Origin: an uncultured virus (IMG/VR IMGVR_UViG_3300010365_000310)
Lineage: Duplodnaviria > Heunggongvirae > Uroviricota > Caudoviricetes
Virus record (IMG/VR): IMGVR_UViG_3300010365_000310
Length of the DNA stretch: 64,000 nt
Direction: 5' to 3' (one strand)
Positions 4,256-43,156 of this stretch are shown in pieces (positions within the stretch are counted from its first letter, which is position 1; each line of letters starts with the position of its first letter). A model generated the notes under the pieces. The model saw nothing but the letters and a program-made list of their open reading frames with translations. It was not told where the DNA came from and searched no databases. The position numbers and the translations under genes are program-made.

Positions 4256-4801
4256 ATGTCTGACAATAACTCTATCTGTGTCAAGTTTTATGGCCGGAAA
4301 GGAGTGGGAAAATTTCTTAAGCTTGTCAATCTTGAATATGAATCATTAGACGGTAATGTTTTAAAAGTTCATAAAAACTCTAATAAGACCACATTGGCCT
4401 ATCACCTTTTTAAAGGCCAAGCCAAAGTGACTATTGTCTTCACGTTTTACACAACGGGATGGACCGTGGTGATAGATTCCAACACTGGGTTTGAGTCTAC
4501 AATTTTGGGAACAATAGATCCAATGACGTCCGTGACGCTATCAACATCCAAAGAGATGTTTGAATTTATCAATAAGCATAAAAAGAGCGGTGATATTGAT
4601 TTTTACATTGATGATTTCTATGACTTGCTTTATGTATTTCTCACATCTATTGATATATTACAGGTGGATGCAGAACAGAATCATGATGATGTTGAAACTA
4701 AGGTTTCTATAAAGTTCAATATCAAAAATGAAAATAATAGCGTTGTGAAAAAATTAATCAATTCTCTCAAGTCATTAAAGAAAATGGAGATTAAAAAATG
4801 A
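4256..4801 (+). CDS. Hypothetical protein, paralog of 1625..2065
   Basis: AGGAG before ATG 4256; shared C-terminal domain. Confidence 0.6.
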   Translation: MSDNNSICVKFYGRKGVGKFLKLVNLEYESLDGNVLKVHKNSNKTTLAYHLFKGQAKVTIVFTFYTTGWTVVIDSNTGFESTILGTIDPMTSVTLSTSKEMFEFINKHKKSGDIDFYIDDFYDLLYVFLTSIDILQVDAEQNHDDVETKVSIKFNIKNENNSVVKKLINSLKSLKKMEIKK

Positions 4802-5283
4802 TCATAAGAAAAAAGTTCAAATTTGAATCGGCCCATATTGTAAGAGAAGCAGTATCCGAACGTTGTAAATTTTCCATACATGGGCACAGTTATGTAGTGG
4901 AAGTAGCCTTGCACGGCAAGACACAGCAGCCAGGTGGCATGCTTCTGGATTTTATCGAATTCAAGAACAATGGTATTAAAGACTTCATTGATAACTTTGA
5001 CCATGCAACCGTTGTATGGTGTAAAGATTCGGATGAATACAAACAGGCGATTCTGGACCATTCAAAAAGAATTGTGTCCATGGAGTTGAATCCGACCGCA
5101 GAGAATATGGCCATGTTCTTTCATTTCTATATTCAAACGATTCTAAATCTTAACCCGAAGCTTGAGTATGTGAAAGTGAAATGGGTCAGAGTTCATGAAA
5201 CCGACACTGGTTATGCAGAATCCGAAGAATCAGATTTTGAAAATATGCCATCTGAATACTTTGGATATTCGGTGATGAAATAA
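4798..5283 (+). CDS. queD: 6-carboxytetrahydropterin synthase
   Basis: FESAH, C...HGHSY, LDF, FDH, PTAEN, VHET motifs. Confidence 0.92.
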   Translation: MIIRKKFKFESAHIVREAVSERCKFSIHGHSYVVEVALHGKTQQPGGMLLDFIEFKNNGIKDFIDNFDHATVVWCKDSDEYKQAILDHSKRIVSMELNPTAENMAMFFHFYIQTILNLNPKLEYVKVKWVRVHETDTGYAESEESDFENMPSEYFGYSVMK

Positions 5284-10572: not shown

Positions 10573-11784
10573 ATGAGCATTATTGCCCCATTAAATTTAG
10601 ATAACTTTATAGATAAGCTTTCTCTTAAGGAAGTTACCAACCCGACAATTCTTTCAACTAAAGGGAAGTATGACACTGATGGATTATTCTCAGAAAGCAT
10701 TTTTGGTATGGATAGGTCAAAAGAACGAAGAAAGACTTATGCATACATAAAATTGAATACTAGAATCATTCATCCCTTGTTATATCAAATTCTCAAAAAG
10801 ATTGAAAGAAAGATCATTGATTTAATAGAAGGGGAAACTCTTTATATCAATGAACAAGATGGTTCTCTTTCAAAAGATAAAGCAGACGGATATAAAGAAA
10901 TATCTGGATTTGATGGGGCGATTTATGCTCTTACTCATGGTGTATTCTTTAGAGGTGATACTGATGTTAGAGATAAGTTGGTAGTCAAACTAAAAGAATA
11001 TATTAAGAGTGGCCTAATGTTTCTAGATAAGATGATTGTGATACCACCAGATTTCAGACCAGCTCAAATTAGTGAAACAGGTGAGTTGATTGGCGTTGAT
11101 GAAGTTAACTCAATATACATCAAATTAATCAATCTCACCAAGAAAGTTAAACTAACTGAAAACAATGATGCTAATGGTGTAATAAGTGAATCATCATACA
11201 TCAGAAGAGATATTCAAAATTTAGTAGTTGAATTATTTGATTATGCAAAAATGAGAACTGGTAAAAAGAGCGGAATCAATCGAGCCAACCTTTTGGGTAA
11301 ACGCGTAGACTTCTCTGGTAGAACGGTCATTACGGCTGGATACGACCTGCCTTTAGGTATGGCTGGTGTTCCATATAGAATTCTAGCAAACATCTGTGAA
11401 CCATTCTTGATCCATCATTTCTATAAAGAATTAGCAGAAGGCAGTAAAGAATATGAAACATTCATGACGATATTGGAAAAGAATGATTTTCATAAAAGTT
11501 TAAATGTTTTGATATTGACAAACTTCCTAAGAGATCTATCCGATGGTGCTGTTAAGCTTTCTAAAGATGAAGAGCTTTTTATCATGGATGTTTTTCAAAG
11601 AATACTCAATGAAAAGTATGTTTTATTGAAAAGAGATCCATCGTTTCATAAAGGTAGCTGGCAAGCATATAGGATCAAGGTGGAGAATCAGGTTGCTATT
11701 CGATTGAACACCACTAGCACAGTTCTCCATAATGCCGATTTTGACGGCGATTGTTGTTTTTCTAAGATACGACTGCGATATTAA
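10573..11784 (+). CDS. rpoC: RNAP beta' paralog 1, N-terminal part, fused to a 10-aa split-intein N-fragment
   Basis: DGLFSESIFG, VIPPDFRP, NLLGKRVDFSGRTVI, LKRDPSFH, NADFDGD (11731-11751), then CCFSKIRLRY-stop. Confidence 0.93.
   Translation: MSIIAPLNLDNFIDKLSLKEVTNPTILSTKGKYDTDGLFSESIFGMDRSKERRKTYAYIKLNTRIIHPLLYQILKKIERKIIDLIEGETLYINEQDGSLSKDKADGYKEISGFDGAIYALTHGVFFRGDTDVRDKLVVKLKEYIKSGLMFLDKMIVIPPDFRPAQISETGELIGVDEVNSIYIKLINLTKKVKLTENNDANGVISESSYIRRDIQNLVVELFDYAKMRTGKKSGINRANLLGKRVDFSGRTVITAGYDLPLGMAGVPYRILANICEPFLIHHFYKELAEGSKEYETFMTILEKNDFHKSLNVLILTNFLRDLSDGAVKLSKDEELFIMDVFQRILNEKYVLLKRDPSFHKGSWQAYRIKVENQVAIRLNTTSTVLHNADFDGDCCFSKIRLRY
11752..11781 (+). mobile_element. Split intein 1, N-fragment (CCFSKIRLRY)
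   Basis: Cys directly after NADFDGD; positionally equivalent to SVIGAVELNI of IntN-2. Confidence 0.8.
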
Positions 11785-11916
11785 ATTGGTATACAGTCAC
11801 AATCATAATACAAGTTCTGGGCATTTAATGATGTTGTTTCTTTAGATGACGCAAAGTCTAAAACTCCGTTATGCATCATCTGCCAAAAAGAATATGCCAG
11901 ACCAAGTCATAATGGT

Positions 11917-13188
11917 ATGGAAACGTGTTCAAATAAAGAGTGCATCAAAACTAATACCAACAAGAAGAAAACTGTTGTTAGATCAAAACAACTATCAATA
12001 ATGCAAAGTAAAACTATTGATGAGTTGCTAAGCATATATAGTAATCGAACAACAAAGAAAACACCATTCGGATGGTTAACATGGATACACCCTCACTATT
12101 TAAAATTTGCTAAAGAAATATACACACAAGAAGATATAGAATTTTTTGGCCAATCCAGGTTGGAAGTTTTATATAAGTATTGGGCTAATTTAAATATTAA
12201 AAATGTGGATGATGCGAAGAAGACAATACCCATGTGCTCGTATTGTAATATTAAACCTAGAGCTCCAAGAATCGTGGGGGATGTCATTTTAGATTCTTGT
12301 GCATCTGCCGAATGTTTAAATAAAAATCACATCGATTCCACCAAAAGATCAATGAAAAATAAGTATGGTGTGGAGAATATAAGTTCTTTGGAGAGTATGA
12401 AAATATATAGAAGCGAGATCATGAAAAGGAATCATGAAAACTTTGGGGATATTACAGAATTGAAGCGCAAAGAATGTGTAAAAGCTAAATACGGTGTTGA
12501 TAATGTTTCACAGATTGAAGCAATTAAAGAAAAAAAGATTGATTCTTTTCAAGAACATTATGGCAAGGATAACATTTTTCAGAGATCTGACCTAATGAAA
12601 GAATATTGGTTAAATGCCCTGGGAGTTGAAAACCCAAAGTTCAAATCTGAAATTAATATTAAGCGATGCTTAAACTTAATACCAGCCTTAATTGAATCCG
12701 TTGGTGAATACCATATGATTAATGGCAAAAGGTTTGGTATTATGGAACCAACCGAACTTCATTTATTGAGAGCATTAGTTGATTATGTCAAAGTGGATGT
12801 CATCGAAACTAATTCAACGGTATTTGAGAAAATGATTTTGGGAAAATCTAGAGCTTATATACCAGATCTAGTTATCGATAATAAAATCATCATTGAATGC
12901 AAATCTTGCGGTTTCGTCGATGAATATAGATTGCGAGAGATGTATGACCTTATAGGTGATCCCGATAAGATTTTAATTACATTTTCTAGTCATAAAGATG
13001 AATTAGCATGGTTAGTATATAAAGATGGTATCATTGACCGAGTGCATTATGAAAGTATTAGGTCAAAAAGATATCTTTTAAAAAGCTTAAAAGTTTTTAA
13101 GAGTGATAGTGTCATAACGGATCTTTTAAACTATATAATTATGAACATATCATATTCAGCATTATTAGAGAATGCGATCTCTATATAA
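11917..13188 (+). CDS. Free-standing putative homing endonuclease (Zn-finger repeats, YGV-N repeats, PD-(D/E)xK nuclease), possibly 5'-truncated
   Basis: KYGVENIS/KYGVDNVS/HYGKDNIF repeats; YIPDLVIDNKIIIECK nuclease motif; lies between the two halves of a fractured gene. Confidence 0.75.
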   Translation: METCSNKECIKTNTNKKKTVVRSKQLSIMQSKTIDELLSIYSNRTTKKTPFGWLTWIHPHYLKFAKEIYTQEDIEFFGQSRLEVLYKYWANLNIKNVDDAKKTIPMCSYCNIKPRAPRIVGDVILDSCASAECLNKNHIDSTKRSMKNKYGVENISSLESMKIYRSEIMKRNHENFGDITELKRKECVKAKYGVDNVSQIEAIKEKKIDSFQEHYGKDNIFQRSDLMKEYWLNALGVENPKFKSEINIKRCLNLIPALIESVGEYHMINGKRFGIMEPTELHLLRALVDYVKVDVIETNSTVFEKMILGKSRAYIPDLVIDNKIIIECKSCGFVDEYRLREMYDLIGDPDKILITFSSHKDELAWLVYKDGIIDRVHYESIRSKRYLLKSLKVFKSDSVITDLLNYIIMNISYSALLENAISI

Positions 13189-13199
13189 AGGACACCAGA

Positions 13200-13691
13200 A
13201 TGAAGTATTCAAAAGAAGAAGTCTTACACATTCAAGATTTAATTTCTAGATCAGATCTTTTTGAATTCACCGAAGAAAAGAATGGCATCCAAAAGTATAA
13301 ACCAATGAAAGATATCTTTATACAAGCCATATCTTTAGAAGATGGCAACACTGATTGGAAAAAGATAACTGAATATTCAGTCCACCCCAATCTTACTATG
13401 TATTCGGTTGAAGATGCATTTGAGAATCGATTTGAAAAATTCTGGGTATCAGATGATCATAGTTTAATTGTATTTGATGAATTGGATGAAGCGTACCTTA
13501 AAATTACGCCAGAAGAAATACTAAATGATTTTTATCGATATTCGTTGGTTCAAATCGTTAATGGCGAGAAAAGATATATTCCATGCGAAGAAATAGAACT
13601 AAAGATTGACCCCGAGAAAACAACGGGTTATGATTTTACCGTTGAAGATTATTATACTTTTGCAACACATGATGGAGTTTTTGTACAAGAT
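13200..13691 (+). mobile_element. Split intein 1, C-fragment (164 aa)
   Basis: Block B WVSDDHSLI, block F GYDFTVEDYYTF, block G GVFVQD followed by Thr +1. Confidence 0.88.
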
Positions 13692-15755
13692 ACTATGGCC
13701 GTATACTTTCCGATTACGATGGAAGGTCAGAAGGATGCTGAGACATTAATGTATATACCAGAAGGCAGTGTCAATACACATCAGTCATCTATTGATATAA
13801 AACATGAATATGTTTTATCATCATATACCATGACTAAGATGCCAACTAAATTTGAATTACCTGATATAGGTATAATCAAGCTTGATGATGTTAGAAAAAA
13901 TTCATTAATGGATTTTGCTATAAAGAATCATATTTATCAAACGGCAACTGTTATATTAGATAATGGTGCTAAATTAAAAACTACGGTTGGTAGAATCACC
14001 TTTAATGCAATATTTCCAAAAGAATTCTTATTGAAATATCATAAGGGTTTTATCGAAACTGCTGTTGATTCTAAATTTATGGCCGGCGATATATTACAGA
14101 ATCTTTTTGAGATGTATCAGAAGTTTGATTATGCTGATATCATATATCGAATGGTTGAAGCATTAAGAAAATACATAACTGTATATCCATCTAGCATGGT
14201 TCTAAGTGAACTACTACAAGCTTCCATGTTTGATGATCTTAAAAAGAAACTTAGAGAAGCAAAGTCAATGCCGGAGAAACAAGCGATTATTGATCAAATA
14301 GAAAACAAGATCAAAAAAGAAATAGCAGATAAGATGCCTATGTTAAATGATATCATAGCATCTGGATCAAGAGGTAAGCCAAATCAATTAAGACAGATGA
14401 TTGTTTCTAAGGGTATTCTTCAAGATGCTCAAGGTAATCTGTTATATATTGATGAGTCGTATATTGATGGACTAAGTCCTATTTCTACATTCATGGGTGG
14501 CTTCGGTGGACGCAAAGGTATTATGGATAGATCTCGTCAAACCGCGACCACTGGATATCTTTATAGAAAGCTAATCTACGCATTAGCAAGTGTCATCTTT
14601 AATGAAGATGTTGATGATTGCGGAACAACTAAAACCGTCATGTGTAAACTTACCAAAAAGAATGCTAAACTTCTTGATGGTAGATTTATAATGGATGGCA
14701 AAAAGAAAGTTCTTTTGAATGCTAAAACGATTGGTGAGTTCATGGATACAACCATAAATCTAAGAACTCCAATATATTGCAAAACCCATAAGCTTTGTAA
14801 AACCTGCTATGGTGATTTGATGCACTTTTATCACAGTAAGTTCATAGGAATTATAGCAGCTCAATCCATGGGTGAACGCGCTTCTCAAGAAATGATGAAA
14901 ACGTTTCATACGGGTGGATCTACTAATGTTGAAATTCCAAACCTTTTTGAACAGATGGCCCACAATAATCCTTTGATTAAAGAATCTGATTTGATGAATT
15001 ATTTCATTCAAGAAGGTACGAAGTTTAAGCTTAAAAATAATTACAATGTTAAAATGGTTTTAAAACAGAGTGATTATTTGAAAGTGAATATGACTTCGTT
15101 TACGGTTATGGATGATGAACGTTCAGCGTTTATAGTTGAGAATATGAAGATTGAAGGAACTCAACTAGCTAGAGCGTTTCATACCAAACCATTCTCAGCG
15201 GAAATAACCATTTATAATGTATCGGAGGAATTATATACTTTTGATGCAATTATAGATGATGGTGTCTTTTTAGCTATTGATTATTTCGATGTTGACGAAT
15301 ATAAAAATGATGAAGGTGTAAAAGTAATTGAATTAAAGAATCGAGATAATGAATTACCATTCTTATTCAATGTTGAGTTATCTTCAAGCGATATGACCGT
15401 AATCATGCAAACGGTTCTTAATATCATTGAGCGCAAGAATATCATGAAGCACCCTGAAGTAGCATTCAATAAACTATCTTTAATTTATGGTGATGATTTT
15501 GGTATTGCTTACAATCATATTGAAATTTTGATATCTCAGATTTTTAGAAATAAAGCCAAACCTGAATTACCAGCACGGTTGGTTGATCCCTATGATGCTC
15601 AAGTTTACAGCATTAAAAATATTGCACACTTGGAATCATTTGTATCTGGTATGCTTTTTGAAAATATGAGTAAATCATTACAGAATGGTTTAATCAATGA
15701 TTCCACTATACAAAACCCTCTTGAGAAATTATTATCGGATGATTTGGAATTTTAA
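13200..15755 (+). CDS. rpoC: Split-intein C-fragment fused to RNAP beta' paralog 1 C-terminal part
   Basis: Own SD AAGGA (13188-13192); extein starts TMAVYFP; TTVGR, SGSRG, bridge helix GRKG...TATTGYLYRKL, Zn site, trigger loop AAQSMGE...KTFHTGG. Confidence 0.93.
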   Translation: MKYSKEEVLHIQDLISRSDLFEFTEEKNGIQKYKPMKDIFIQAISLEDGNTDWKKITEYSVHPNLTMYSVEDAFENRFEKFWVSDDHSLIVFDELDEAYLKITPEEILNDFYRYSLVQIVNGEKRYIPCEEIELKIDPEKTTGYDFTVEDYYTFATHDGVFVQDTMAVYFPITMEGQKDAETLMYIPEGSVNTHQSSIDIKHEYVLSSYTMTKMPTKFELPDIGIIKLDDVRKNSLMDFAIKNHIYQTATVILDNGAKLKTTVGRITFNAIFPKEFLLKYHKGFIETAVDSKFMAGDILQNLFEMYQKFDYADIIYRMVEALRKYITVYPSSMVLSELLQASMFDDLKKKLREAKSMPEKQAIIDQIENKIKKEIADKMPMLNDIIASGSRGKPNQLRQMIVSKGILQDAQGNLLYIDESYIDGLSPISTFMGGFGGRKGIMDRSRQTATTGYLYRKLIYALASVIFNEDVDDCGTTKTVMCKLTKKNAKLLDGRFIMDGKKKVLLNAKTIGEFMDTTINLRTPIYCKTHKLCKTCYGDLMHFYHSKFIGIIAAQSMGERASQEMMKTFHTGGSTNVEIPNLFEQMAHNNPLIKESDLMNYFIQEGTKFKLKNNYNVKMVLKQSDYLKVNMTSFTVMDDERSAFIVENMKIEGTQLARAFHTKPFSAEITIYNVSEELYTFDAIIDDGVFLAIDYFDVDEYKNDEGVKVIELKNRDNELPFLFNVELSSSDMTVIMQTVLNIIERKNIMKHPEVAFNKLSLIYGDDFGIAYNHIEILISQIFRNKAKPELPARLVDPYDAQVYSIKNIAHLESFVSGMLFENMSKSLQNGLINDSTIQNPLEKLLSDDLEF

Positions 15756-16507: not shown

Positions 16508-18244
16508 ATGTGCGGAATATTTGCGTTCTTTAATATGGATTCAGGTATTAAAATACCATATGAACTAATTAAGACTGTAGCCATTGAAGCCCAAAAAAGA
16601 GGCAGAGATGGTTATGGTTACATGATCAATGATGCACTTTATAAAGAATCATCATCCGATACTTTTGAAATGTTTAATGTTCGAATCGGTAGACAATCCT
16701 TTGGTATGGTTAATTGCAGGGCTAAACCTGAAACCGAACAGGCCACAACCAAAATCAATATGCAACCAATTTCTTATGTTGATATGTTCAACAATAAAGA
16801 ATACTTGGTGCATAATGGTGCAGTATCGGAAAGCTACAAAGATGAGATGTTTAAAAAGCATTCATGGAAGCCCATCACTAAAATAGATAGTGAAGCTTTG
16901 CTTTGTATGTGTGTACATGAAGGTGTTGATGCTAACACTCTTTCAAAGATTAATGGTGGTTTTGCATTCATTCATATGAAAGTATTTGAAGGTAAATTGC
17001 AAAAGGTGAGTGTTGCTTGCAAATACCAACCATTGTATGCATTGGAAGTAGCAAGCCCTGCTGGTAGTGTAATATTCTATCACAGTCTCAAAAGTGGTAT
17101 TGACATTCTTAAGAAATACTATGAAGCCGGGGAATACTTTATTAATGAATATGAATTCCCTGAATATGCTTTTGAAACATTTGACTTAGTTAATGGTACT
17201 CGAGATAAAGGAACATTCGAACCATATTTTGAATATCCTAATAAAGCTAAGACCAATAAGAAAGTTAAAGTATTATGCGCATGCTCTGGTGGTATTGACT
17301 CTACCACTAGTTTGATTATGGCTCATAAGCTTTTGGAAAAAACTAAAGTTCCGTTTGATATAGATCTGGTCCATTTTAAATATGGCCATAGAGGTCAGAC
17401 GGCCGAAATTAACGCGGTTCGAGATATAGTTGAATGGTTAGAGCATAGTGATATCAAAGTCAACCTTAAGGTTGTTGATCTTGAAGACATTTACAAATAC
17501 GTTTTTAATGTTCAAAGAAGTCAATTAATCAATCCAAACTTAGTTGTAGAAACTGGAACGCAGGATAAGTTAAAATCAACTGTGGCTTGGGTTCCGGTTA
17601 GAAATATGCTTTTTCAAACTATTATGATTGGTTTAGCTGAGACTTATATTCTTGAAGAAGGATATAAGAAAGCTTATATAGTTGCTGGTTGGAACCAACT
17701 ATCAGAAGAAGGATTCTACCCGGATAACTCAAGCAGGTTTGCTAATACAATGTTAAAAGCTGCTAAATTCGGAACACTGGTTGGCAATCAAATTAAACCA
17801 TGGAATATATGTAGCCAATTACTTAAAAGCGATCAGTGGTTGTTGGCTGAGGTATTCAAATTCATTGAAGTCTTTAAATACACAATATCTTGTGATATAC
17901 CAGTTCTTGATGGCCCCGCATTCTATAATTGCAATGGACAATGTGGATCTACTTTATTAAGTATGTGGGCAGCCAAAAGGTATAAAGGTATCAAAGATCC
18001 AAGACAATTCAGGGATGCTAGTGTAACCATAAGCAAAGATAAGATGTATACATCTCCAATTGAAGAAGAATTGGAAATAACCCGAGATGTAATAACTCAA
18101 ACCATCAATAGAATTATTAAACCAGATGAAGTCACCTACAATTTACACAAGATCTTTCAGACGAACATTCTGGAGACCATTAATAATGCCCGAAACAATG
18201 CAGTCGAATATATACCTGATGGAGATGTTGAAAAGGTTTTATGA
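16508..18244 (+). CDS. Gat-QueC fusion (Ntn glutamine amidotransferase + QueC)
   Basis: MCGIF start, RGRDG, QPI, HNG, IDSE; then CSGGIDST, YGHR, VPVRN, YPDN, TISC. Confidence 0.9.
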   Translation: MCGIFAFFNMDSGIKIPYELIKTVAIEAQKRGRDGYGYMINDALYKESSSDTFEMFNVRIGRQSFGMVNCRAKPETEQATTKINMQPISYVDMFNNKEYLVHNGAVSESYKDEMFKKHSWKPITKIDSEALLCMCVHEGVDANTLSKINGGFAFIHMKVFEGKLQKVSVACKYQPLYALEVASPAGSVIFYHSLKSGIDILKKYYEAGEYFINEYEFPEYAFETFDLVNGTRDKGTFEPYFEYPNKAKTNKKVKVLCACSGGIDSTTSLIMAHKLLEKTKVPFDIDLVHFKYGHRGQTAEINAVRDIVEWLEHSDIKVNLKVVDLEDIYKYVFNVQRSQLINPNLVVETGTQDKLKSTVAWVPVRNMLFQTIMIGLAETYILEEGYKKAYIVAGWNQLSEEGFYPDNSSRFANTMLKAAKFGTLVGNQIKPWNICSQLLKSDQWLLAEVFKFIEVFKYTISCDIPVLDGPAFYNCNGQCGSTLLSMWAAKRYKGIKDPRQFRDASVTISKDKMYTSPIEEELEITRDVITQTINRIIKPDEVTYNLHKIFQTNILETINNARNNAVEYIPDGDVEKVL

Positions 18245-29865: not shown

Positions 29866-30153
29866 ATGTCTTACGCATGGGTGATCATCAAAGAATTTGA
29901 TTTTGAAAATTCTGAGTTGTTTAAAGATGTTGAGATTATAGGACCAAGACACCCAAAATTTTCAAAAGACAAAATCATAAATGAAGGTTCAAAATTTCGA
30001 CTGTACGATGATGACGGTGTTCTTTATTATGAAGGACATATCTTTGGTGATGATACCGTTAATGGTTTTGAACCATTAGACGATTTTGGTATGCCTAATG
30101 ATGGTTGTACCACAATCAAGTATTTTGTAGATGGTATTTGGAAAACTTTATAA
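29866..30153 (+). CDS. Conserved-type small phage protein
   Basis: AGGAG RBS; FRLYDDDG..YYEG motif. Confidence 0.6.
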   Translation: MSYAWVIIKEFDFENSELFKDVEIIGPRHPKFSKDKIINEGSKFRLYDDDGVLYYEGHIFGDDTVNGFEPLDDFGMPNDGCTTIKYFVDGIWKTL

Positions 30154-30163
30154 GGGGAAACTC

Positions 30164-31483
30164 ATGCCGAAAAAACTAGTTCTCAAGAAGTTGACTGATT
30201 ATGATTCGAAGCCGGTTACCAGTGATAAAATCATTGATAAGAAACGGTTTCATGAAGCAGGACTTTATAGTCAAGCAATCTTTGGTCCAATTAAAGATTA
30301 TGTTTGCCAGTGTGGTAAATATGATCCATTCGGCGGGGAATGTGAAGTATGTAAAGTTGCTTATACCAAAAGCGAAGTTCGAGGCACTAAGTTCGGCCAT
30401 ATCTTATTGCCTAATGAAATCATTAATCCATTGTTCTTGTGGAATCTAAGCACAAGGATTAAAAAGAGCACCACTAAAATTGATTTGCCATCACTGATTT
30501 TCTATAAAAAGATTTTGATCTTTAAAGATGGTGAACCAAGAATGGTTTCGGTTGAAGATTTTGATACAGTGAAAGAAACTTATGACACTTACTGTGGTGT
30601 TGAAGCCGTAAAGAAAGTTATAGCTTTCATTGAAGAAAAACTCAAAGAAAATGAAAAGTTTAAAATTGAGCCATATATCAAAATGTCTTCTTGGAAACTT
30701 ATTAAAGAAGCTGGTGAACATCTTTTTATTGATAGAATACTGGTAGTCCCGCCAGATCTCAGACCAATACTCTTTACTGGTAACAAGATGGTTGTTCAGG
30801 AAACTCTGTCAAGATTGTATACAACTCTTTTGACTAAGTTGAATATCATGAACAATAAAACCAAATTTATCAAAGGTGTAAATACAACAACTTTTAAGAA
30901 TTACGCAGATATTCAATATATGTGCTCAGGCATTTATGAAGAAATTTTGGGTATCTTTGGTGGTAAGACTGGTATCATCAGAGGTAACATGCTTGGGAAG
31001 AGAATTGATTATTCCGGGCGAGCTGTTATTGCAGTGGATCCGAGCCTGAAATATAACGAATGTAGAATTCCGTATTATATACTTCTTGAAGTGTATAAAT
31101 ATTCTCTGGCAAGAGATATATCTAAGAAGCGTAATGTAATGATCTTTAAAGTTCTTGATGAGATTGAAGAGTCTTTAAAGTTCAGGGATTACAGGTTTCT
31201 TAAAGAAGTTGAAGAATTTGTCAAGAATAAGATGGTCATGCTCAACCGTCAGCCAACTCTTTATAAACTTGGGGTTCTTGGTTGGAATATTAAAGTTAGC
31301 ACGGATTTTACTATCAAATTGCACCCATTCGCCTGCCCCGCCTATAACGCCGATTTTGATGGCGATTCAGTTATTGGGGCAGTAGAACTGAATATCGAAG
31401 GCAAGAAGAAAGTATTTGAGATGGAAGATCTACTCAATGTTGAATTCAATGAAAAGAAAAACGACTGGGAGATTGTGAAATGA
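30164..31483 (+). CDS. rpoC: RNAP beta' paralog 2, N-terminal part, fused to a 38-aa split-intein N-fragment
   Basis: GLYSQAIFGP..DYVCQCGKY...CEVC zinc ribbon, VVPPDLRP, NMLGKRIDYSGRAVI, NRQPTL, YNADFDGD (31346-31366), then SVIGAV... Confidence 0.94.
   Translation: MPKKLVLKKLTDYDSKPVTSDKIIDKKRFHEAGLYSQAIFGPIKDYVCQCGKYDPFGGECEVCKVAYTKSEVRGTKFGHILLPNEIINPLFLWNLSTRIKKSTTKIDLPSLIFYKKILIFKDGEPRMVSVEDFDTVKETYDTYCGVEAVKKVIAFIEEKLKENEKFKIEPYIKMSSWKLIKEAGEHLFIDRILVVPPDLRPILFTGNKMVVQETLSRLYTTLLTKLNIMNNKTKFIKGVNTTTFKNYADIQYMCSGIYEEILGIFGGKTGIIRGNMLGKRIDYSGRAVIAVDPSLKYNECRIPYYILLEVYKYSLARDISKKRNVMIFKVLDEIEESLKFRDYRFLKEVEEFVKNKMVMLNRQPTLYKLGVLGWNIKVSTDFTIKLHPFACPAYNADFDGDSVIGAVELNIEGKKKVFEMEDLLNVEFNEKKNDWEIVK
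31367..31480 (+). mobile_element. Split intein 2, N-fragment (38 aa, Ser1)
   Basis: SVIGAVELNIEGKKKVFEMEDLL has the intein block A strand-strand-helix pattern. Confidence 0.85.
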
Positions 31484-32061
31484 TTAAAGAGTATATTCGA
31501 GAACTTGAAGATTACATTTTAGGATTCACTGATGGTGTTGTACCAAAAGAAATTCAAAGCATAAGCAATTTGAGTGAAAAGCAAATTCAAGATCTTTTTG
31601 ATATGAAGGAATTTATTCTTTCAAATAGAAATATATTTCAGCCGTTTTCTAAACTTGAATATTATGACACAATATTCTGTTTCGGGTTTAAATTGGTTAT
31701 TAACTCAAGATCCAAAATAGAAGAATATATTGCTGATAAAATGTTTAAAAGAAGAGAGATTGTCATGAAATTGGTTGATGATAAAGATCTTCTGGCAACT
31801 CTTTATGTCACAGTTCCTAAAAAACCTTTAGTCGAAACAATTTCAAAATCCGATTACATGGAATCTTTGTATGATATTGCTTGTGATCTTTGTGAAGTGC
31901 TTGGAGAAGATAAAATCAATCTTTTCACAAGTAGGCAAATTAAATATCTTGCGTCATTACTTGATTGCACCAAAGGTGATTTCGGGTATAAGATTTCATA
32001 TTCAGTTATGAATGATCTTTTTAAAGAACGATTCGAGGCAGAATTGAATGAGTTCAAATGA
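31480..32061 (+). CDS. Hypothetical protein inside the fractured beta' locus 2
   Basis: ATGA overlap with upstream gene; no motif recognised. Confidence 0.6.
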   Translation: MIKEYIRELEDYILGFTDGVVPKEIQSISNLSEKQIQDLFDMKEFILSNRNIFQPFSKLEYYDTIFCFGFKLVINSRSKIEEYIADKMFKRREIVMKLVDDKDLLATLYVTVPKKPLVETISKSDYMESLYDIACDLCEVLGEDKINLFTSRQIKYLASLLDCTKGDFGYKISYSVMNDLFKERFEAELNEFK

Positions 32062-32206
32062 TTTAAAACCCGGAGTCTATGAACTTTTCGGAAATACCGT
32101 TCATTATCTTGATGAAGAGGCCTATGATGTTGATGCTGGTCAAGAGGTTCCGGTAGATGTTCTTAAAGAATATGGCAAATTTGTAAAAGATTTTGATAAC
32201 TTTTGA
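32048..32206 (+). CDS. Small acidic protein (52 aa), not in ORF track
   Basis: MSSNDLKPGVYELFG...FDNF; fills the gap between neighbouring ORFs. Confidence 0.5.
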   Translation: MSSNDLKPGVYELFGNTVHYLDEEAYDVDAGQEVPVDVLKEYGKFVKDFDNF

Positions 32207-32216
32207 AAGGGAGTAA

Positions 32217-32711
32217 ATGGAACAATCAGATCTGCCCCAATTGTTAGTCCTATTGAATTGCCAGAATGATTTTGCTACCCCCGAATTTCCATACTATAAA
32301 AAGTTGTTATGTGATACCCATCGAAAAGATATTTTGAAATTATTGGAAACCGTTTTTTATGATGATGTTTTGGTATTGATCGACTTGCATAGTAAAGAAG
32401 AGTTTGAAAGAAAGCAAATTAAACATTGTATATTTAATAGTGAAGGTGCTATGATATTCACTCCATTGTTGCAATATCTTAGAAAGAATTTTAAAACCCG
32501 AGCTTTCATTAAAAATGAAACAAGACACCTGAGAAATAATAATCTACTCAAAACTCATTTATCTAATTTCAATCCCAGAGTTACTACCATTGATTATTGC
32601 GGGTTTGAACATTATAAGAATGAATTTGAAGATGTACATAATTATTTTGCTAACTTCGGTTATGCAACCGGTAAAAAAGTTATCATGAATGTATCTAATA
32701 AGGAGAACTGA
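32217..32711 (+). CDS. Divergent nicotinamidase/isochorismatase-family protein
   Basis: LLVLLNCQNDF, IDLH, HCIFNSEGA, FIK; catalytic Asp/Cys look altered. Confidence 0.6.
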   Translation: MEQSDLPQLLVLLNCQNDFATPEFPYYKKLLCDTHRKDILKLLETVFYDDVLVLIDLHSKEEFERKQIKHCIFNSEGAMIFTPLLQYLRKNFKTRAFIKNETRHLRNNNLLKTHLSNFNPRVTTIDYCGFEHYKNEFEDVHNYFANFGYATGKKVIMNVSNKEN

Positions 32712-32714
32712 GGT

Positions 32715-33182
32715 ATGGGAAAGAAGTTATTTGAATTCAGTCATAAAGATGGACATATATCTCATTATAAACCAACGGTGAATATTTTGATTGAAGCCAT
32801 TTCAGAAGATGGTAAAATCGAAATGAAACCAATAACAGATTTCTCAGTTCATGAAAACTTGGTTATGTATAAAGTGCACGATAGACTAAATCGTTTTAAA
32901 GATTTTTGGGCATCGGATGATCACAGCTTGTTAGCTATTGATCGCGGTAAAGTCTACAAGATATCGCCAAAAGAAATTCTTGAAAAACGAGACAAAGAAA
33001 TAATCAATATGATATATAAGAATCCACCATCTGATGCAAGCCATGTGTCGGAGTTGGGTATTATTTTTATCAATGCAAATGAACTTGATATCACTCTTGA
33101 TCCAAGTAAGACAACTGCATATGATTTCACCGTTGAAAATTACTTTACTTTCAGATTAGCAGATGGTCTGTTTGTACAGGAT
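32715..33182 (+). mobile_element. Split intein 2, C-fragment (156 aa)
   Basis: Block B WASDDHSLL, block F AYDFTVENYFTF, block G GLFVQD followed by Ser +1. Confidence 0.88.
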
Positions 33183-34691
33183 TCAATGGCTGCATACTTT
33201 ACCTTAACTGAGGAAGCTGAAGCTGAACTCCGTGATAAGGTGTCAATTGATAATAACCTTTTCATGGATTTCGATAAAAGGAACCTCACCCTTCAACCGG
33301 GACACGATATCGTATATGGTATATACTTACTATCCAAACGTAAACCAGAGGCGTTGCCTAAACCGTTACACGAATATATGGTAGCCCAAGGATGGGATTC
33401 AGTCAATAAGAAAAGGCTTAAAGAATTTCTTGTCTATCACATTGGTCTTGATAAACGCAATGCAAAAATCATTGATGAGATTACTCAGCTTGGTTTCACC
33501 ATTGCTACCAAATACAATCAAACACATCTGTCCATTGAAAACATTATTTCTAGTATCGTACCATTGGAAAAGAGACAGGCTCTTTATGATCGATACATGA
33601 AAAAAGAAATCAGTATGTTTGAATACATGGAAGAAGACGAGAAGATGACCGATGAACTCAAGAAGATCTGCGTCTTCACGGATTTGATTGAATCTGGATC
33701 AAGAGGTTCATGGCCTCAGGCTAAACAGATGTTTCAACAGAGAGGTTTCGTAAGTAACTCGGTTGGACAGGTTATGCCCACTCCGGTCATGAGAAACCTA
33801 GCTGAAGGTCTTGATTCAAGAGAATTATTCCTTTCGTGTTATGGTGTTAGAAAAGGTATTGCAGATATCTCCGACAACACCGCCGTATCTGGTACATTTA
33901 CTAGAGCTCTAATCTATCTTGGACTTGAGGCTAAACAGGGTGATCACAAGAAGCCATGCGATACGAAAAAGTATTTGAATCTCAATGTTGAAGATGAAAA
34001 GATGGCTAGCGCCTTGTTCGGTCGTTACATTTTCCTTGATGACGAATGCAAAGAAATGGTTCGAGTCACAAGAGAGAATTATAAAACATTCATTAATCAA
34101 AATGTTAGATTGAGATCTCCAATCTATTGTGTGAATCATGAATATTGCCACTATTGTTCACCATATAAAGAACTGAATGAAATCGAAAAAGGTAAGACCT
34201 ATAATGTAGGCATCAATGCTGCTGGTAGCTTAGGTGAACCAACCACCCAGATGGTTCTCAGAGTATTCCATACCTCCGGGGCTAGTGGTAAGATTTCAGA
34301 TAATCAAGATGGGAAACAGGGGGTTGTTCAGGATTTGAGAGGAACCATTGGGTTATTCTCTAAGCCTAACTTTACCTTTCAAACTCTCCCGAACTATCTT
34401 TATAAGATATACAAGACCTATAGTGAATACAAAGAAATTCCGATGCTCTATTTTGAAGTATTGCTTTCTTGTTTGATGTGGACCAAGTCAGATCCGAATC
34501 TTGAAGAAGTGGATGTCCTGTGGAGATTGAAGCAGGATAATACCTTGGAACTTGTTGGATATAATAAAGTTCCAAGTCTTTATGGATTCTTGCTTGGTTG
34601 CGCCTTTAAGAACTTCAAACGAAGATTGCTTTCCTCATTGAATAAGAATGTTGGTAATAGCATATTCGAGAAACTCATTCTGGGAGAATGA
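32715..34691 (+). CDS. rpoC: Split-intein C-fragment fused to RNAP beta' paralog 2 C-terminal part
   Basis: AGGAG RBS; extein starts SMAAYF; QPGHDIVYGIYLL, SGSRG, VRKG...TAVSG, RSPIYC, AAGSLGEPTTQMVLRVFH. Confidence 0.93.
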   Translation: MGKKLFEFSHKDGHISHYKPTVNILIEAISEDGKIEMKPITDFSVHENLVMYKVHDRLNRFKDFWASDDHSLLAIDRGKVYKISPKEILEKRDKEIINMIYKNPPSDASHVSELGIIFINANELDITLDPSKTTAYDFTVENYFTFRLADGLFVQDSMAAYFTLTEEAEAELRDKVSIDNNLFMDFDKRNLTLQPGHDIVYGIYLLSKRKPEALPKPLHEYMVAQGWDSVNKKRLKEFLVYHIGLDKRNAKIIDEITQLGFTIATKYNQTHLSIENIISSIVPLEKRQALYDRYMKKEISMFEYMEEDEKMTDELKKICVFTDLIESGSRGSWPQAKQMFQQRGFVSNSVGQVMPTPVMRNLAEGLDSRELFLSCYGVRKGIADISDNTAVSGTFTRALIYLGLEAKQGDHKKPCDTKKYLNLNVEDEKMASALFGRYIFLDDECKEMVRVTRENYKTFINQNVRLRSPIYCVNHEYCHYCSPYKELNEIEKGKTYNVGINAAGSLGEPTTQMVLRVFHTSGASGKISDNQDGKQGVVQDLRGTIGLFSKPNFTFQTLPNYLYKIYKTYSEYKEIPMLYFEVLLSCLMWTKSDPNLEEVDVLWRLKQDNTLELVGYNKVPSLYGFLLGCAFKNFKRRLLSSLNKNVGNSIFEKLILGE

Positions 34692-36213: not shown

Positions 36214-36361
36214 TACCATCTTTAGAAATGAAGAAGGTATTGTTAAAGGTATCTTGAAGAAAGGTGATGTTATTGACGTCCATTTTAATGATGTCATCAA
36301 AGCATACCATAATGACAAGTATGGTTACTTCATGGATGTTGAACTCGAGGTCTTACCATGA
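36191..36361 (+). CDS. Small hypothetical protein (56 aa), not in ORF track
   Basis: AGGAG before ATG 36191; ATGA overlap with next gene. Confidence 0.55.
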   Translation: MKAMIKYNTIFRNEEGIVKGILKKGDVIDVHFNDVIKAYHNDKYGYFMDVELEVLP

Positions 36362-38949
36362 GTGATATTGAACGAGGTTATCAGGAAGTTGTCACCGAGT
36401 ATGATGACAAATATGAGGCAAACATCTGTAAGGAAAGGCAGCTTCCTGACCATCGAGATGGAATGCGAATGATTCAGCGTCGCATTTTTTGGGTATTCTT
36501 GAGTATGTCAAGAGAACGCAGATTTAACTTGACTAAGTCTGCTAGTATCGTTGGTGATACAATAAAGCTGCACCCGCACGGCGATTGTCTTAAAGGTGAT
36601 ACTATTGTTTATACACTAGATGGAGTTCCCAAAACCATTGAAGACTTATTCAAATCCGGTGTTGAATTTCAATGGGTGTTAGCCTACGATATTAAAACTA
36701 GGAAATTTAAACCAGTCAAGGCTCACTCATTTAGAATTGGTCAAAGAACTAAAGAAACTGTTAAAATATATCTTAGTGACGAGACCCATATTGAGTGTAG
36801 TTTTGAACATCCAATTCTAGTAAAGGGCGAGAAATGGATACTAGCAAAAGATTTAAAAGCTGGCATGCCAATAACTGGTGGTATTATAACTGATTCAAGT
36901 TATCCAATGATAAAGTCAAAATATTTTGACGAATTAAGTGAATCTTTACATTATGTGGTTTCCCCGAGCTCTGGTGAATATGATGTTTTACATCACAAGG
37001 ATTTTAATTCTAAAAATAATATGCCGGATAATCATGTGTGGTTAACCAGAGGGGAACATGCGAAATTACATGGTGATTATAAAATCGGTTTAGAACTGGG
37101 CCGAAAATCTATGTTCTCCGAAGATGGCAAATATTATGATGCAATTAAAGAAAAGAATATACGTCTGTGTAGTTTAGCATCCGAGAAACTTGGACTTTAT
37201 AAGGCATTTCAGGTTTTAAAATTGATTAAGGAAAGTTCTCTAGATCTCACTATGGAGAATTATTCTATTTTCAGGCTTAAAACCTATAACGGACCTTACA
37301 TACAATCATTAATCAAAAGAAATCTGATTACTAATTTCGAAGATTTAGTTTTCCAGTTTGAGAATTATAAAGGTACAAACACGGATTCGTGTAAAGGCCT
37401 GACTAGATCTTTATATGAACCTAGACCATACATCAAAAGAGACACCAATGACGCAGTGAGAAATGGTGTTTTAAAAAGATTTGGTCAGGTTCTGGAATTA
37501 GTACATTTAGAACATGGTAAGATAACTAAAGATCTTTATCAAGAAACAAGAAAAATCGTTAATTCAAGTACCAAACGAGATATCTTCAAAAGAAATTCTC
37601 CAACATTAGAAACATTGAATAAGATGTTTAATTCTTTTGAAAATGCTATTAAAGAAGTTCCGGCTGATTCTTATCTTTCAGTTAAAGATATTGAAATAAT
37701 TCGTTATAATGAAGATGTACCTCTTTATGATTTTACCGTGGACACTTATGAAAATATGGCAATTTTAACCAATGGAAGCGATGGCATAAATAAGACTTTT
37801 ATGATTGTACATAATAGTTCAATTTATGATTCATTGGTTAACGAGGTGAATTCCGTGGCCGGGCTGCTTAAAGGTAAAGGTAACTGGGGGGATAAATCTT
37901 GCAGTCTCCCTAGCAAACCGGCTAAAATGCGATACACCGAATGTAAGTTAAACAAGGAAGCCGATGCCTTTTTTAAATACACTCCTTATGCCGAAATGAT
38001 CATGGGGGAAAACAATGAACCAGAACCAGCGTTCTTGCCAGTGCCTTTTCCCTATGCATTGATTGGCGGATTTTTTGGACTTTCAAAATCAGGTAGGACA
38101 TTAACTCCATCATATAAGATGAGTGATTTACACAAGAGGCTTGTTTACCTTATCAAGGGCGATAAGTCTGGCAAGGGTCCTATAATTAAGCCATGGTTCG
38201 GAATCAATCTTCCTATGAAGGGAGATTTCGAAGACCTACTTACTAAGGGAGCTGGGCAGGTTTCAATTGAACCAGATTTGGATATCGATGAAAAGAACGA
38301 GAAAATAACCATCAAAGCATTCTGTCCAGATATGACCAATGTAGGTGCCAAATTAGAAAAGATGTCTATTCATCCCAAGTTTGGTAAATACATTGAAATA
38401 ACAGATCTGTCTGCAAAGAAGAATGAAATCATAGTTGAATATAAAACTAAGTATATGAAGAATGTTGACATTCCTTTTGATAAACTTTGTGAGTTCGTTA
38501 AAAAAGAATTTACGCATCTTAATACTTATAACATGATGACATACTTTGATTTTAAAGATTATCCTAAAGTATCAGTTGATGGTTGGCTTTTGGATAACTT
38601 TAAACAGATTTTAACGTTCAGGCAAAAAGAGATTGAAGAAGCAATCAAAGCTCTCAAATCAAAAATAAGTCTTAATGAAGCCATACTTAAAATTAGACCT
38701 CTTATTCAAGCATGGTTAAACAAGTACAAGAAATTTACTCATGAAATCATAGAAGAATTAAAAGTTGAAATCGGTAAATTACTTAACGATAAAGAACTAA
38801 CATCTAAAGTTTTACAAATCAGCATCATGAAATTGCTTGATTGTGAAATTGATAATGAAACATTACACAAAGAAATAAAATCTCTAGAGACCGTTAATAC
38901 ACCGGAAGAACGTCAAAAGAATATTCTTGCTTGGATGGAGACATTATAA
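36358..38949 (+). CDS. Type IIA topoisomerase breakage-reunion subunit (GyrA / T4 gp52-like) with intein
   Basis: RQLPD.RDG...QRR, KSA..VG, HPHGD|S, GKGNWG, AKMRYTE; 453-aa extein. Confidence 0.92.
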   Translation: MSDIERGYQEVVTEYDDKYEANICKERQLPDHRDGMRMIQRRIFWVFLSMSRERRFNLTKSASIVGDTIKLHPHGDCLKGDTIVYTLDGVPKTIEDLFKSGVEFQWVLAYDIKTRKFKPVKAHSFRIGQRTKETVKIYLSDETHIECSFEHPILVKGEKWILAKDLKAGMPITGGIITDSSYPMIKSKYFDELSESLHYVVSPSSGEYDVLHHKDFNSKNNMPDNHVWLTRGEHAKLHGDYKIGLELGRKSMFSEDGKYYDAIKEKNIRLCSLASEKLGLYKAFQVLKLIKESSLDLTMENYSIFRLKTYNGPYIQSLIKRNLITNFEDLVFQFENYKGTNTDSCKGLTRSLYEPRPYIKRDTNDAVRNGVLKRFGQVLELVHLEHGKITKDLYQETRKIVNSSTKRDIFKRNSPTLETLNKMFNSFENAIKEVPADSYLSVKDIEIIRYNEDVPLYDFTVDTYENMAILTNGSDGINKTFMIVHNSSIYDSLVNEVNSVAGLLKGKGNWGDKSCSLPSKPAKMRYTECKLNKEADAFFKYTPYAEMIMGENNEPEPAFLPVPFPYALIGGFFGLSKSGRTLTPSYKMSDLHKRLVYLIKGDKSGKGPIIKPWFGINLPMKGDFEDLLTKGAGQVSIEPDLDIDEKNEKITIKAFCPDMTNVGAKLEKMSIHPKFGKYIEITDLSAKKNEIIVEYKTKYMKNVDIPFDKLCEFVKKEFTHLNTYNMMTYFDFKDYPKVSVDGWLLDNFKQILTFRQKEIEEAIKALKSKISLNEAILKIRPLIQAWLNKYKKFTHEIIEELKVEIGKLLNDKELTSKVLQISIMKLLDCEIDNETLHKEIKSLETVNTPEERQKNILAWMETL
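36586..37815 (+). mobile_element. Contiguous intein (410 aa) with HNH endonuclease
   Basis: CLKGDT start, block B SFEHPIL, HHKDFNSKNN.PDN...EHAKLH, LYDFTVD, IVHN|S end. Confidence 0.93.
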
Positions 38950-42544: not shown

Positions 42545-43156
42545 ATGAATCTTAAACCTTTTGTCAATGATTTTAATCAAGAAGAAGTTCTCAATAAAGT
42601 CGAAGAGAAGTTTGCTGAAATCTTGAAACTTCTTAGACTAGAAGAAGTAGTTGATAATGTTCATCTTGATGGAACTCCCAGAAGAGTTGCTAAGATGTAC
42701 ATCAATGAATTGTTTGAAGGTTGCTACCATCTACCGCCGAATGTTAAAAAGTTTCATGATGAAAATGCAACACCAGTAATCAACAGTAATATCACAATTA
42801 AGTCAATTTGTGCTCATCACTTTGTACCATTCTATGGTAAAGCATCCATTTACTATATTCCTCAGAATGGTCTTATCACCGGTCTTTCTAAGTTTTCAAG
42901 AGTATCCGATTACTTTTCAAGAAGGCCTCAGATTCAGGAAAATCTTACCAGGCAGATCGGAAGATTTTTCGTTGAAGAATTAAAGCCTCTTGAATTCATC
43001 ATTGCCATTAAAGCTAAGCATATGTGCATTTGTCATCGAGGTGCTAATGAAGATAACCCAGTAACGGAAACATTCTGGTCATATTCAAAACACACCGGTG
43101 AAGCAGATTTCCAAAAAATTCAGTATGTTCTCAATACAATTGATTATAAAGGATAA
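42545..43156 (+). CDS. folE: GTP cyclohydrolase I
   Basis: TPRRVAKMY, SICAHHFVPF, GLSK, RRPQIQE, HMC. Confidence 0.93.
   Translation: MNLKPFVNDFNQEEVLNKVEEKFAEILKLLRLEEVVDNVHLDGTPRRVAKMYINELFEGCYHLPPNVKKFHDENATPVINSNITIKSICAHHFVPFYGKASIYYIPQNGLITGLSKFSRVSDYFSRRPQIQENLTRQIGRFFVEELKPLEFIIAIKAKHMCICHRGANEDNPVTETFWSYSKHTGEADFQKIQYVLNTIDYKG

What the first reader, a model, noticed from the sequence alone, without database searches (positions are those of the whole stretch)
11752..13691. Natural split intein with a 10-residue N-fragment
Seen: IntN-1 is only CCFSKIRLRY (three basic residues, no acidic ones). The next structural element (EEVLHIQDL, equivalent to KKVFEMEDL in IntN-2) begins the acidic 164-aa C-fragment. 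Established: atypically split natural inteins such as VidaL, PolB16 and AceL-TerL have N-fragments of roughly 15-25 aa, and ~11-aa fragments have been made by engineering. Inference: this may be among the shortest natural IntN pieces and would be easy to synthesise for protein labelling.
Basis: partly seen in the sequence, partly recalled or inferred. Interest (0 to 1): 0.85.

Follow-up and report, generated by a model that had tools for sequence, protein, structure and literature searches.

The report
Ten-residue split intein in phage polymerase
An uncultured large phage encodes the catalytic subunit of one RNA polymerase as two genes that are likely stitched together after translation by a two-piece self-splicing element whose first piece has only 10 residues, shorter than any natural one we found in print, and whose last residue is an unusual aspartate.

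Summary
Confirmed. The beta' N-gene (10573-11784) ends NADFDGD|CCFSKIRLRY-TAA. A homing-endonuclease-like ORF follows, then a separately started gene (13200) whose first 164 residues are predicted to fold as an intein lacking only its first 10-12 residues (pLDDT 94.5; Z 16.1 to Aes123 PolB1). The 10-mer scores as the family's block A (13.9 bits; 0 of 5953 control 10-mers as high). The short piece is a clade trait, not an error: four orthologous protein clusters end 11-13 residues after the motif, all with Ser1, and eight related IntC proteins start with Met at the same place. Most likely it trans-splices at the known S1 site; splicing and binding are untested. Published natural N-pieces are 15-37 aa, so 10 aa would be a record, but engineered 11-aa S1 pieces exist and unchecked notes of this scan list other natural 10-14 aa pieces. 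New variant of a known kind; interest 0.65.

The parts
10573..11751 (+). N-extein: RNA polymerase beta' N-part, 393 aa, ending in the Mg-binding motif NADFDGD
   Evidence: Pfam RNA_pol_Rpb1_2 E 4.6e-22, Rpb1_1 E 3.2e-6; 73% identical to intein-free ortholog P0041
11752..11781 (+). IntN-1, 10 aa, CCFSKIRLRY (Cys1; block A), net +3
   Evidence: block A profile score 13.9 bits; tiles onto contiguous relatives
11782..11784 (+). TAA stop closing IntN-1
   Evidence: TAA ends 28 of 56 long + strand ORFs, no tRNA gene in the 76-kb contig
11809..13188 (+). Free-standing homing-endonuclease-like ORF (open 459 codons; first ATG at 11917); its start appears deleted in this strain
   Evidence: PHROG homing endonuclease E 5.9e-7; DUF7487 E 2.9e-8, PD-(D/E)XK only E 0.04; relatives between the halves of other split loci; strain X2 has extra DNA at 11810/11812
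13188..13192 (+). AAGGA, likely ribosome-binding site 7 nt before the IntC start codon
   Evidence: sequence; similar sites before S1-type IntC in L007 and L008
13200..13691 (+). IntC-1, 164 aa, net -19: His62 (NX), Ser84/His87 (block B), Asp145 (F:4), ends Gln163-Asp164; no His at F:13 or G:6
   Evidence: alignments; model pLDDT 94.5; HINT fold, residues 3-6 align to residue 11-13 of solved inteins and Asp164 to their terminal Asn
13692..15755 (+). C-extein: beta' C-part, 687 aa, starting Thr+1
   Evidence: Pfam RNA_pol_Rpb1_5 E 1.8e-21; same start as in intein-free P0041 after DFDGD
31367..31480 (+). IntN-2 (38 aa, Ser1) of the second beta' paralog; same family, split further downstream
32715..33182 (+). 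IntC-2 (156 aa, ends VQD before Ser+1), 44% identical to IntC-1

Best explanation
The beta' gene is split into two genes right after the NADFDGD motif by a natural intein broken at the S1 site (10-aa IntN, 164-aa IntC), and the two proteins are likely joined by protein trans-splicing into one 1080-aa subunit. Shown: the two ORFs, the HINT-fold prediction lacking just residues 1 to about 11, conserved catalytic positions, and conservation of the short piece in a clade. Inferred: the basic 10-mer docks as the first strands into the acidic, largely pre-folded IntC, helped by extein contacts; Cys1 makes the N-S shift aided by His87, Ser84, Asp145 and His62; Thr+1 takes over the N-extein; Asp164, which sits where other inteins have Asn, releases the intein, probably by cyclising; an O-N shift joins Asp393 to Thr+1. 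The split likely arose once, when a free-standing endonuclease gene landed in the loop after block A (fractured-gene route).
For: IntC model: pLDDT 94.5; best matches all inteins, Aes123 PolB1 Z 16.1, rmsd 2.1, 146 aligned; model 4-165 aligns to Ssp DnaB 12-155, i.e. the engineered S1 site. 10-mer = block A and tiles with IntC without overlap or gap. Orthologs: of the 10 closest N-proteins (46-100% id), 5 end 10-13 aa after DFDGD with a block A (window, P0042, P0043, P0045, P0048), 1 is intein-free, 4 stop after DFDG; three more cluster members carry 11-aa tails. 8 of 37 IntC homologs start with Met 6 residues before the LHI-type strand (9 in the window) and S1-type IntC form one clade (9 rows, SH-aLRT 98, quick tree). 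Selection for splicing: +1 is Thr/Ser/Cys in 81 of 81 intein C-termini against 39 of 144 intein-free sites; residue 1 is Ser/Cys/Thr in 59 of 59 long IntN (selected on that); His62, Ser84, His87 invariant in 34 of 34 rows; intein identity (46-65%) equals host C-extein identity (47-61%) in 7 of 7 S1 pairs. An S11/G12 engineered split of the closest solved intein splices cleanly but slowly (PMC13014065 section 6).
Against: No splicing or binding was measured. Asp at G:7 with no His at F:13 (0 of 81) or G:6 (1 of 81, an unrelated Asn-ending intein) departs from the standard release step. IntC alone hits no intein profile above cut-off (10 of 34 family rows reach PF14890 weakly). Orthologs' short tails come from protein records; their DNA and their pairing with IntC genes were not seen (P0042 with P0003 share a contig length only). 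Non-covalent assembly of a fractured essential gene has a precedent (PMC3045599 abstract).
Confidence: 0.8

Rival explanations
1. The intein pieces only clip the two beta' halves together non-covalently (or cleave without ligating); the polymerase works as a two-chain subunit.
For: NADFDGD lies wholly in the N-extein; many phage beta' relatives are naturally two-chain, ending 50-57 aa after the motif; atypical Asp terminus without helper His; Aeh1 NrdA is assembled by non-covalent tails (PMC3045599 abstract).
Against: Nucleophile at +1 in 81 of 81 versus 39 of 144 intein-free sites, invariant catalytic His/Ser/Asp, and contiguous members of the family (L003, L030, L044, L056, P0022) with the same Asp end, where a large insert next to the Mg loop would have to be removed.
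Confidence: 0.1
2. The 1.4-kb spacer is a self-splicing intron; RNA splicing restores a contiguous intein, so no 10-aa protein piece exists.
For: Exon 1 would end in U and the spacer could end at the G of the ATG, in frame; five orthologs stop right after DFDG with unrelated tails, which suggests RNA-level insertions at this hot spot.
Against: No Rfam intron match at gathering score in the window or at E<=5 in 11500-13500; the ORF fills all but about 40 nt of the spacer; boundary folds are no better than shuffles (z 0.10 and -1.17); IntC has its own RBS and Met, as do L007 and L008, where unrelated genes lie upstream; no joint across the spacer in 4 of 4 runs, though these are contigs, probably DNA.
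Confidence: 0.04
3. The stop is an assembly error, is read through, or the locus is a decaying remnant and the other beta' does all the work.
For: Only one certainly independent strain covers the stop, marginally; the endonuclease start seems deleted, so the cassette is partly decayed; a second beta' exists in the genome.
Against: A second in-frame TAA follows 7 codons later and no other frame continues the intein; no tRNA gene; seven distinct 10-13 aa tails and none of 14-26 aa among 80 Ser/Cys tails; both exteins and IntC are intact and as conserved as each other; the two beta' are only about 24% identical, so not redundant copies.
Confidence: 0.06

Closest known systems
PolB16 OarG and VidaL, natural S1-split inteins (PMC10189870 passages and section 9; PMC13014065 passages and section 6)
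   Same: Split right after strand beta2; short IntN, long IntC; PolB16 shares the NX His and a HINT fold (8cpn Z 10.7)
   Different: IntN 10 aa (orthologs 11-13) against 15 and 16; host is RNA polymerase beta'; terminus Gln-Asp, not His-Asn; Cys1 in this copy, Ser1 in the orthologs; the residue before the NX His is Val/Lys/Ile/Glu rather than always Arg/Lys
Aes123 PolB1 / CL intein (PDB 9HTH)
   Same: Best structural match (Z 16.1, rmsd 2.1, 146 residues); same extra hairpin after helix 1; NX His; splices when cut artificially at S11/G12
   Different: Naturally split at the canonical site; ends in Asn; 15% identity
Fractured genes (Dassa et al. 2009, PMC2677866 passages)
   Same: [quoted passage not shown]
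   Different: Hosts there are DNA synthesis and repair enzymes ('RNA polymerase' occurs 0 times) and the break is between motifs N4 and C2; here S1, and the family uses three break sites
Inteins with C-terminal Asp or Gln (PMC4031507 passages; Amitai et al. 2004 seen only as a reference entry)
   Same: Asp at G:7, for which cyclisation is the proposed release step, 'although other mechanisms are possible'
   Different: Here Asp is the rule of a large family (80 of 81), combined with loss of both helper His and with natural splitting

Membership tests
Class 1 intein | HINT fold | tested here: met
   model pLDDT 94.5, Foldseek E 2.8e-7 and Z 16.1 to 9hth; top 20 rows all inteins
Class 1 intein | Cys/Ser at position 1 and Cys/Ser/Thr at +1 | tested here: met
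   Cys1, Thr+1; 81 of 81 family +1
Class 1 intein | Block B Thr/Ser-x-x-His and block F:4 Asp | tested here: met
   Ser84, His87, Asp145 invariant
Class 1 intein | C-terminal Asn (or the accepted variants Gln, Asp) | tested here: met
   met only as the rare Asp variant: Asp164 aligns to terminal Asn of Npu DnaE 137, Mtu RecA 440, Mxe GyrA 198; variant accepted in PMC4031507
Class 1 intein | His at G:6 or F:13 assisting release (usual, not universal) | tested here: not met
   G:6 Gln 72, Tyr 4, Phe 4, His 1 of 81; F:13 Tyr/Phe 74, His 0 of 81
Class 1 intein | Self-catalysed splicing | not testable with these tools
   needs bench assay
Natural atypically (S1) split intein | Two genes, break right after strand beta2, each with own stop/start | tested here: met
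   TAA 11782, RBS+ATG 13200; IntC aligns from residue 11-13 of solved inteins
Natural atypically (S1) split intein | IntN binds IntC | not testable with these tools
Cysteine-less (Ser1/Ser or Thr+1) inteins | Ser1 | tested here: not met
   window copy has Cys1 (and Cys2); the 7 short-tail ortholog records all have Ser1
Cysteine-less (Ser1/Ser or Thr+1) inteins | NX motif His | tested here: inconclusive
   His62 invariant and aligned to the His of Mja TFIIB 'SRH' in a weak profile match, E 0.19; contact with residue 1 not modelled
Fractured gene | Free-standing homing endonuclease gene between the halves | tested here: met
   PHROG homing endonuclease E 5.9e-7; nuclease activity and start codon unverified
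Group I/II intron | Ribozyme core in the spacer | tested here: not met
   no Rfam hit; ORF fills the spacer; one chance-level match to three recalled core motifs

The most novel reading that the evidence does not exclude
A clade of uncultured jumbo phages builds an essential RNA polymerase through the smallest natural intein piece (10-13 aa, Ser1/Thr+1 in most members), using an undescribed release chemistry centred on a terminal Asp with no helper histidines; and the two beta' paralogs of one phage use different break sites of the same intein so that their halves cannot cross-splice. This would give fast, cysteine-free, easily synthesised ligation tags and a natural design rule for orthogonal split inteins.
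Probability: 0.3. Interest if true: 0.85.

Novelty: new variant of a known kind. Interest (0 to 1): 0.65.

Why it matters
Protein chemists want short synthetic IntN pieces: a 2026 paper aa record-short and says a cysteine-less piece of about 15 aa that splices well is still wanted (PMC13014065). This clade offers natural 10-13 aa pieces, most with Ser1/Thr+1, kept under selection in an essential gene, and P0004 is an S1-type IntC without any Cys. The family also makes an old mechanistic question directly testable: how an intein ending in Asp, without His at F:13 or G:6, resolves its branched intermediate. One family with three natural break sites (10-13, 27-47, 128-159 aa) is a ready series for studying how split sites arise and whether they confer orthogonality.

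Tried and rejected
Complex prediction of IntN with IntC: tool not available, so binding has no computed verdict. Cultured phages: no match to IntC among 50,697 records and only 23-31% identity for beta' C. Pfam, NCBIfam and PHROGs do not name IntC-1 above cut-off; ESM Atlas gave unnamed clusters at 0.91-0.93 and intein clusters at 0.87-0.89, leads only. No locus holding both halves of another S1-type pair was retrieved (L007 and L008 are too short). Intron search: nothing. Promoter/terminator scan of the spacer: at chance level (8 against 9.4 expected). Frameshift or read-through continuation: none. Shifting the junction by one residue (Gln as terminus, Asp as +1) was considered because Asp precedes both nucleophiles; rejected because Gln is replaced by Tyr/Phe in 8 of 81 and Asp164 superposes on the terminal Asn. 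The careful tree did not finish; only the quick tree (76 rows, 99 columns, 40 of 73 inner branches open) was used, so the order of split events is not resolved. Paper searches with no relevant hit.

Full report
Observation. The window is part of a 76-kb contig of a large phage-like genome with two multi-subunit RNA polymerase beta' genes. The first beta' N-gene, 10573-11784, ends NADFDGD followed by CCFSKIRLRY and TAA. A 1415-nt spacer holds one ORF with homing-endonuclease matches (PHROG E 5.9e-7; DUF7487 E 2.9e-8). At 13200 a gene with AAGGA upstream starts MKYSKEEVLHIQDL; residues 1-164 end in VQD and are followed by TMAV and the rest of beta' (Rpb1_5 E 1.8e-21). The intein-free ortholog P0041 (73% identical) reads DFDGD then TMAIYF, which fixes both junctions. 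Charges are +3 and -19.

Is the stop real? Run X1 (possibly the source) spans the region with 0 differences; X2, from another study, covers 11541-11810 with four substitutions and no gap, but three of the four places were not displayed and it extends only 26 nt past the stop. L005 (0 differences in 14,553 nt) and L006 (2, far downstream) are probably the same sample. TAA ends 28 of 56 long ORFs and no tRNA gene was found; no other frame continues the intein. The stronger evidence is comparative. Of the ten closest N-proteins, five end 10-13 residues after the motif in a block A (window 10; P0042 13; P0043 11; P0045 12; P0048 11), one is intein-free and four stop right after DFDG with unrelated tails. 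Cluster members add P0304, P0305 and P0307 (11 aa each) and one more DFDG-stop, P0306. These are protein records; I did not see their DNA. On the other side, 8 of 37 homologs of the C-gene start with Met just before the same LHI-type strand; L007 and L008 show such starts with their own ribosome sites and unrelated upstream genes.

Is the 10-mer an intein piece? On a profile from the first ten residues of 59 family members with long N-parts, positions 2-10 score 13.9 bits, above the members' own median (10.2) and above all 5953 control 10-mers; the orthologs score 5.1-12.9, while a DFDG-stop tail scores -9.95. In alignment, IntN-1 and IntC-1 tile the N-terminus of contiguous and canonically split relatives without overlap. 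AlphaFold2 on a 34-row alignment gives IntC pLDDT 94.5; its matches are inteins, best Aes123 PolB1 (Foldseek E 2.8e-7; Z 16.1, rmsd 2.1, 146 residues), and in nearly every row model residue 3-6 pairs with residue 11-13 of the solved intein, e.g. 4 with 12 of Ssp DnaB. IntC is thus a whole HINT domain minus about eleven residues: the S1 site.

The family. Searches of metagenome, viral and genome collections and of proteins show one intein allele after NADFDGD in many large phage-like contigs. Among 80 distinct Ser/Cys-starting tails under 170 aa, 7 are 10-13 aa, 25 are 27-47, 2 are 62-70 and 46 are 128-159; none is 14-26 (Thr-starting tails were left out; one is 22 aa). Contiguous forms also occur. 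In a quick tree the nine S1-type IntC form one clade (SH-aLRT 98), but deeper order is unresolved. Of 81 C-termini found by a block F pattern that left the last residues free, 80 end in Asp (the exception is an Asn-ending intein at another site), 72 have Gln before it, none has His at F:13, and all 81 are followed by Thr, Ser or Cys; in 144 intein-free sites (phage, bacterial and other) that residue is Thr/Ser in 39. His62, Ser84 and His87 are invariant in 34 of 34 rows; His62 aligns weakly (E 0.19) with the His of the Ser1 Mja TFIIB intein, the position that PMC10189870 (section 9) names NX and finds essential in Ser1 inteins. Asp164 superposes on the terminal Asn of Npu DnaE, Mtu RecA and Mxe GyrA. 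In 7 of 7 comparisons within the S1 clade the intein is as conserved as the essential C-extein.

Mechanism. Shown: two genes, complementary intein pieces, conserved nucleophiles and N-terminal catalytic set. Inferred (0.8): the basic peptide completes the acidic IntC; Cys1 thioester, transfer to Thr+1, release at Asp164, acyl shift, giving a 1080-aa beta' (the intein-free P0160 is 1068 aa). The release step is the least certain: PMC4031507 (passages) gives Asp cyclisation as the expected route and says other mechanisms are possible; here both usual helper His are absent. The origin fits the fractured-gene model (PMC2677866 passages): related endonuclease ORFs lie between the halves at other break sites (L015 41% over 253 aa). 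In this strain the endonuclease lacks a start codon for its first 36 open codons, and strain X2 has extra DNA at exactly that point, so it is probably decaying while the intein is kept. Rivals: non-covalent clip (0.1; precedent PMC3045599, abstract only), intron (0.04; no Rfam hit, no room, own Met starts), error or decay (0.06).

Against what is known. Natural atypical IntN are given as 15-37 aa with PolB16 the record at 15, and S1 splits are known from VidaL and PolB16 (PMC13014065 passages and section 6; PMC10189870). Engineered 11-aa pieces work (M86; Aes123 S11/G12, slowly). So the site and the layout are known; the length, the host, the Asp terminus and the Ser1 orthologs are not in the papers I read. 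Nine searches found no description of this beta' intein family, but the library lacks most subscription journals and I read no supplements, where intein catalogues may list it. Unchecked notes of this scan report the same Asp-ending family in other genomes and natural N-pieces of 10, 13 and 14 aa in ATPases and RecA, so pieces under 15 aa are probably not rare in uncultured phages; none was found by sequence or place for this locus.

Verdict. Real, correctly read, and a new variant of a known kind. Interest 0.65: a likely record-tying natural N-piece with cysteine-free orthologs and an open chemical question, tempered by the known S1 site and the lack of any activity data.

Noticed in passing
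window 30131-34691: Second beta' paralog is split by the same intein family at a later site (IntN-2 38 aa, Ser1; IntC-2 156 aa, Ser+1) with two unnamed ORFs between. IntN-2 carries the strand-helix that IntC-1 carries itself, and IntN-1 lacks what IntC-2 needs, which may prevent cross-splicing.
   Followed up: partly
window 31430-31480 and 32715-32770: The end of IntN-2 aligns with the same hairpin that begins IntC-2: the two pieces overlap by about 14 residues, possibly a duplication made when the gene broke.
   Followed up: no
P0044, P0046, P0047, P0049, P0306: Five orthologous N-proteins stop right after DFDG with unrelated tails, suggesting an intron or other element inside the catalytic motif; P0306 shares contig count and length with the S1-type IntC protein P0309, which would leave IntN on a tiny second exon.
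   Followed up: no
window 11810-11812: Strain X2 has at least 94 extra bases here, apparently holding the start of the endonuclease gene; the window strain seems to have lost it.
   Followed up: partly
P0029, P0061, P0070, P0084, P0226: Family members whose intein begins with Thr instead of Ser or Cys.
   Followed up: no
window 36358-38949: Gyrase/topoisomerase A-like gene with a contiguous intein (TIGR01445 E 1.3e-5).
   Followed up: no
window 4798-5283, 16508-18244, 42545-43156: QueD-like, QueC-like/glutamine amidotransferase and GTP cyclohydrolase genes: likely 7-deazaguanine pathway for DNA modification.
   Followed up: no
L001, L003, L004: Relatives carry a second intein further down beta' and contiguous endonuclease-bearing forms of this allele that also end in Asp.
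   Followed up: partly
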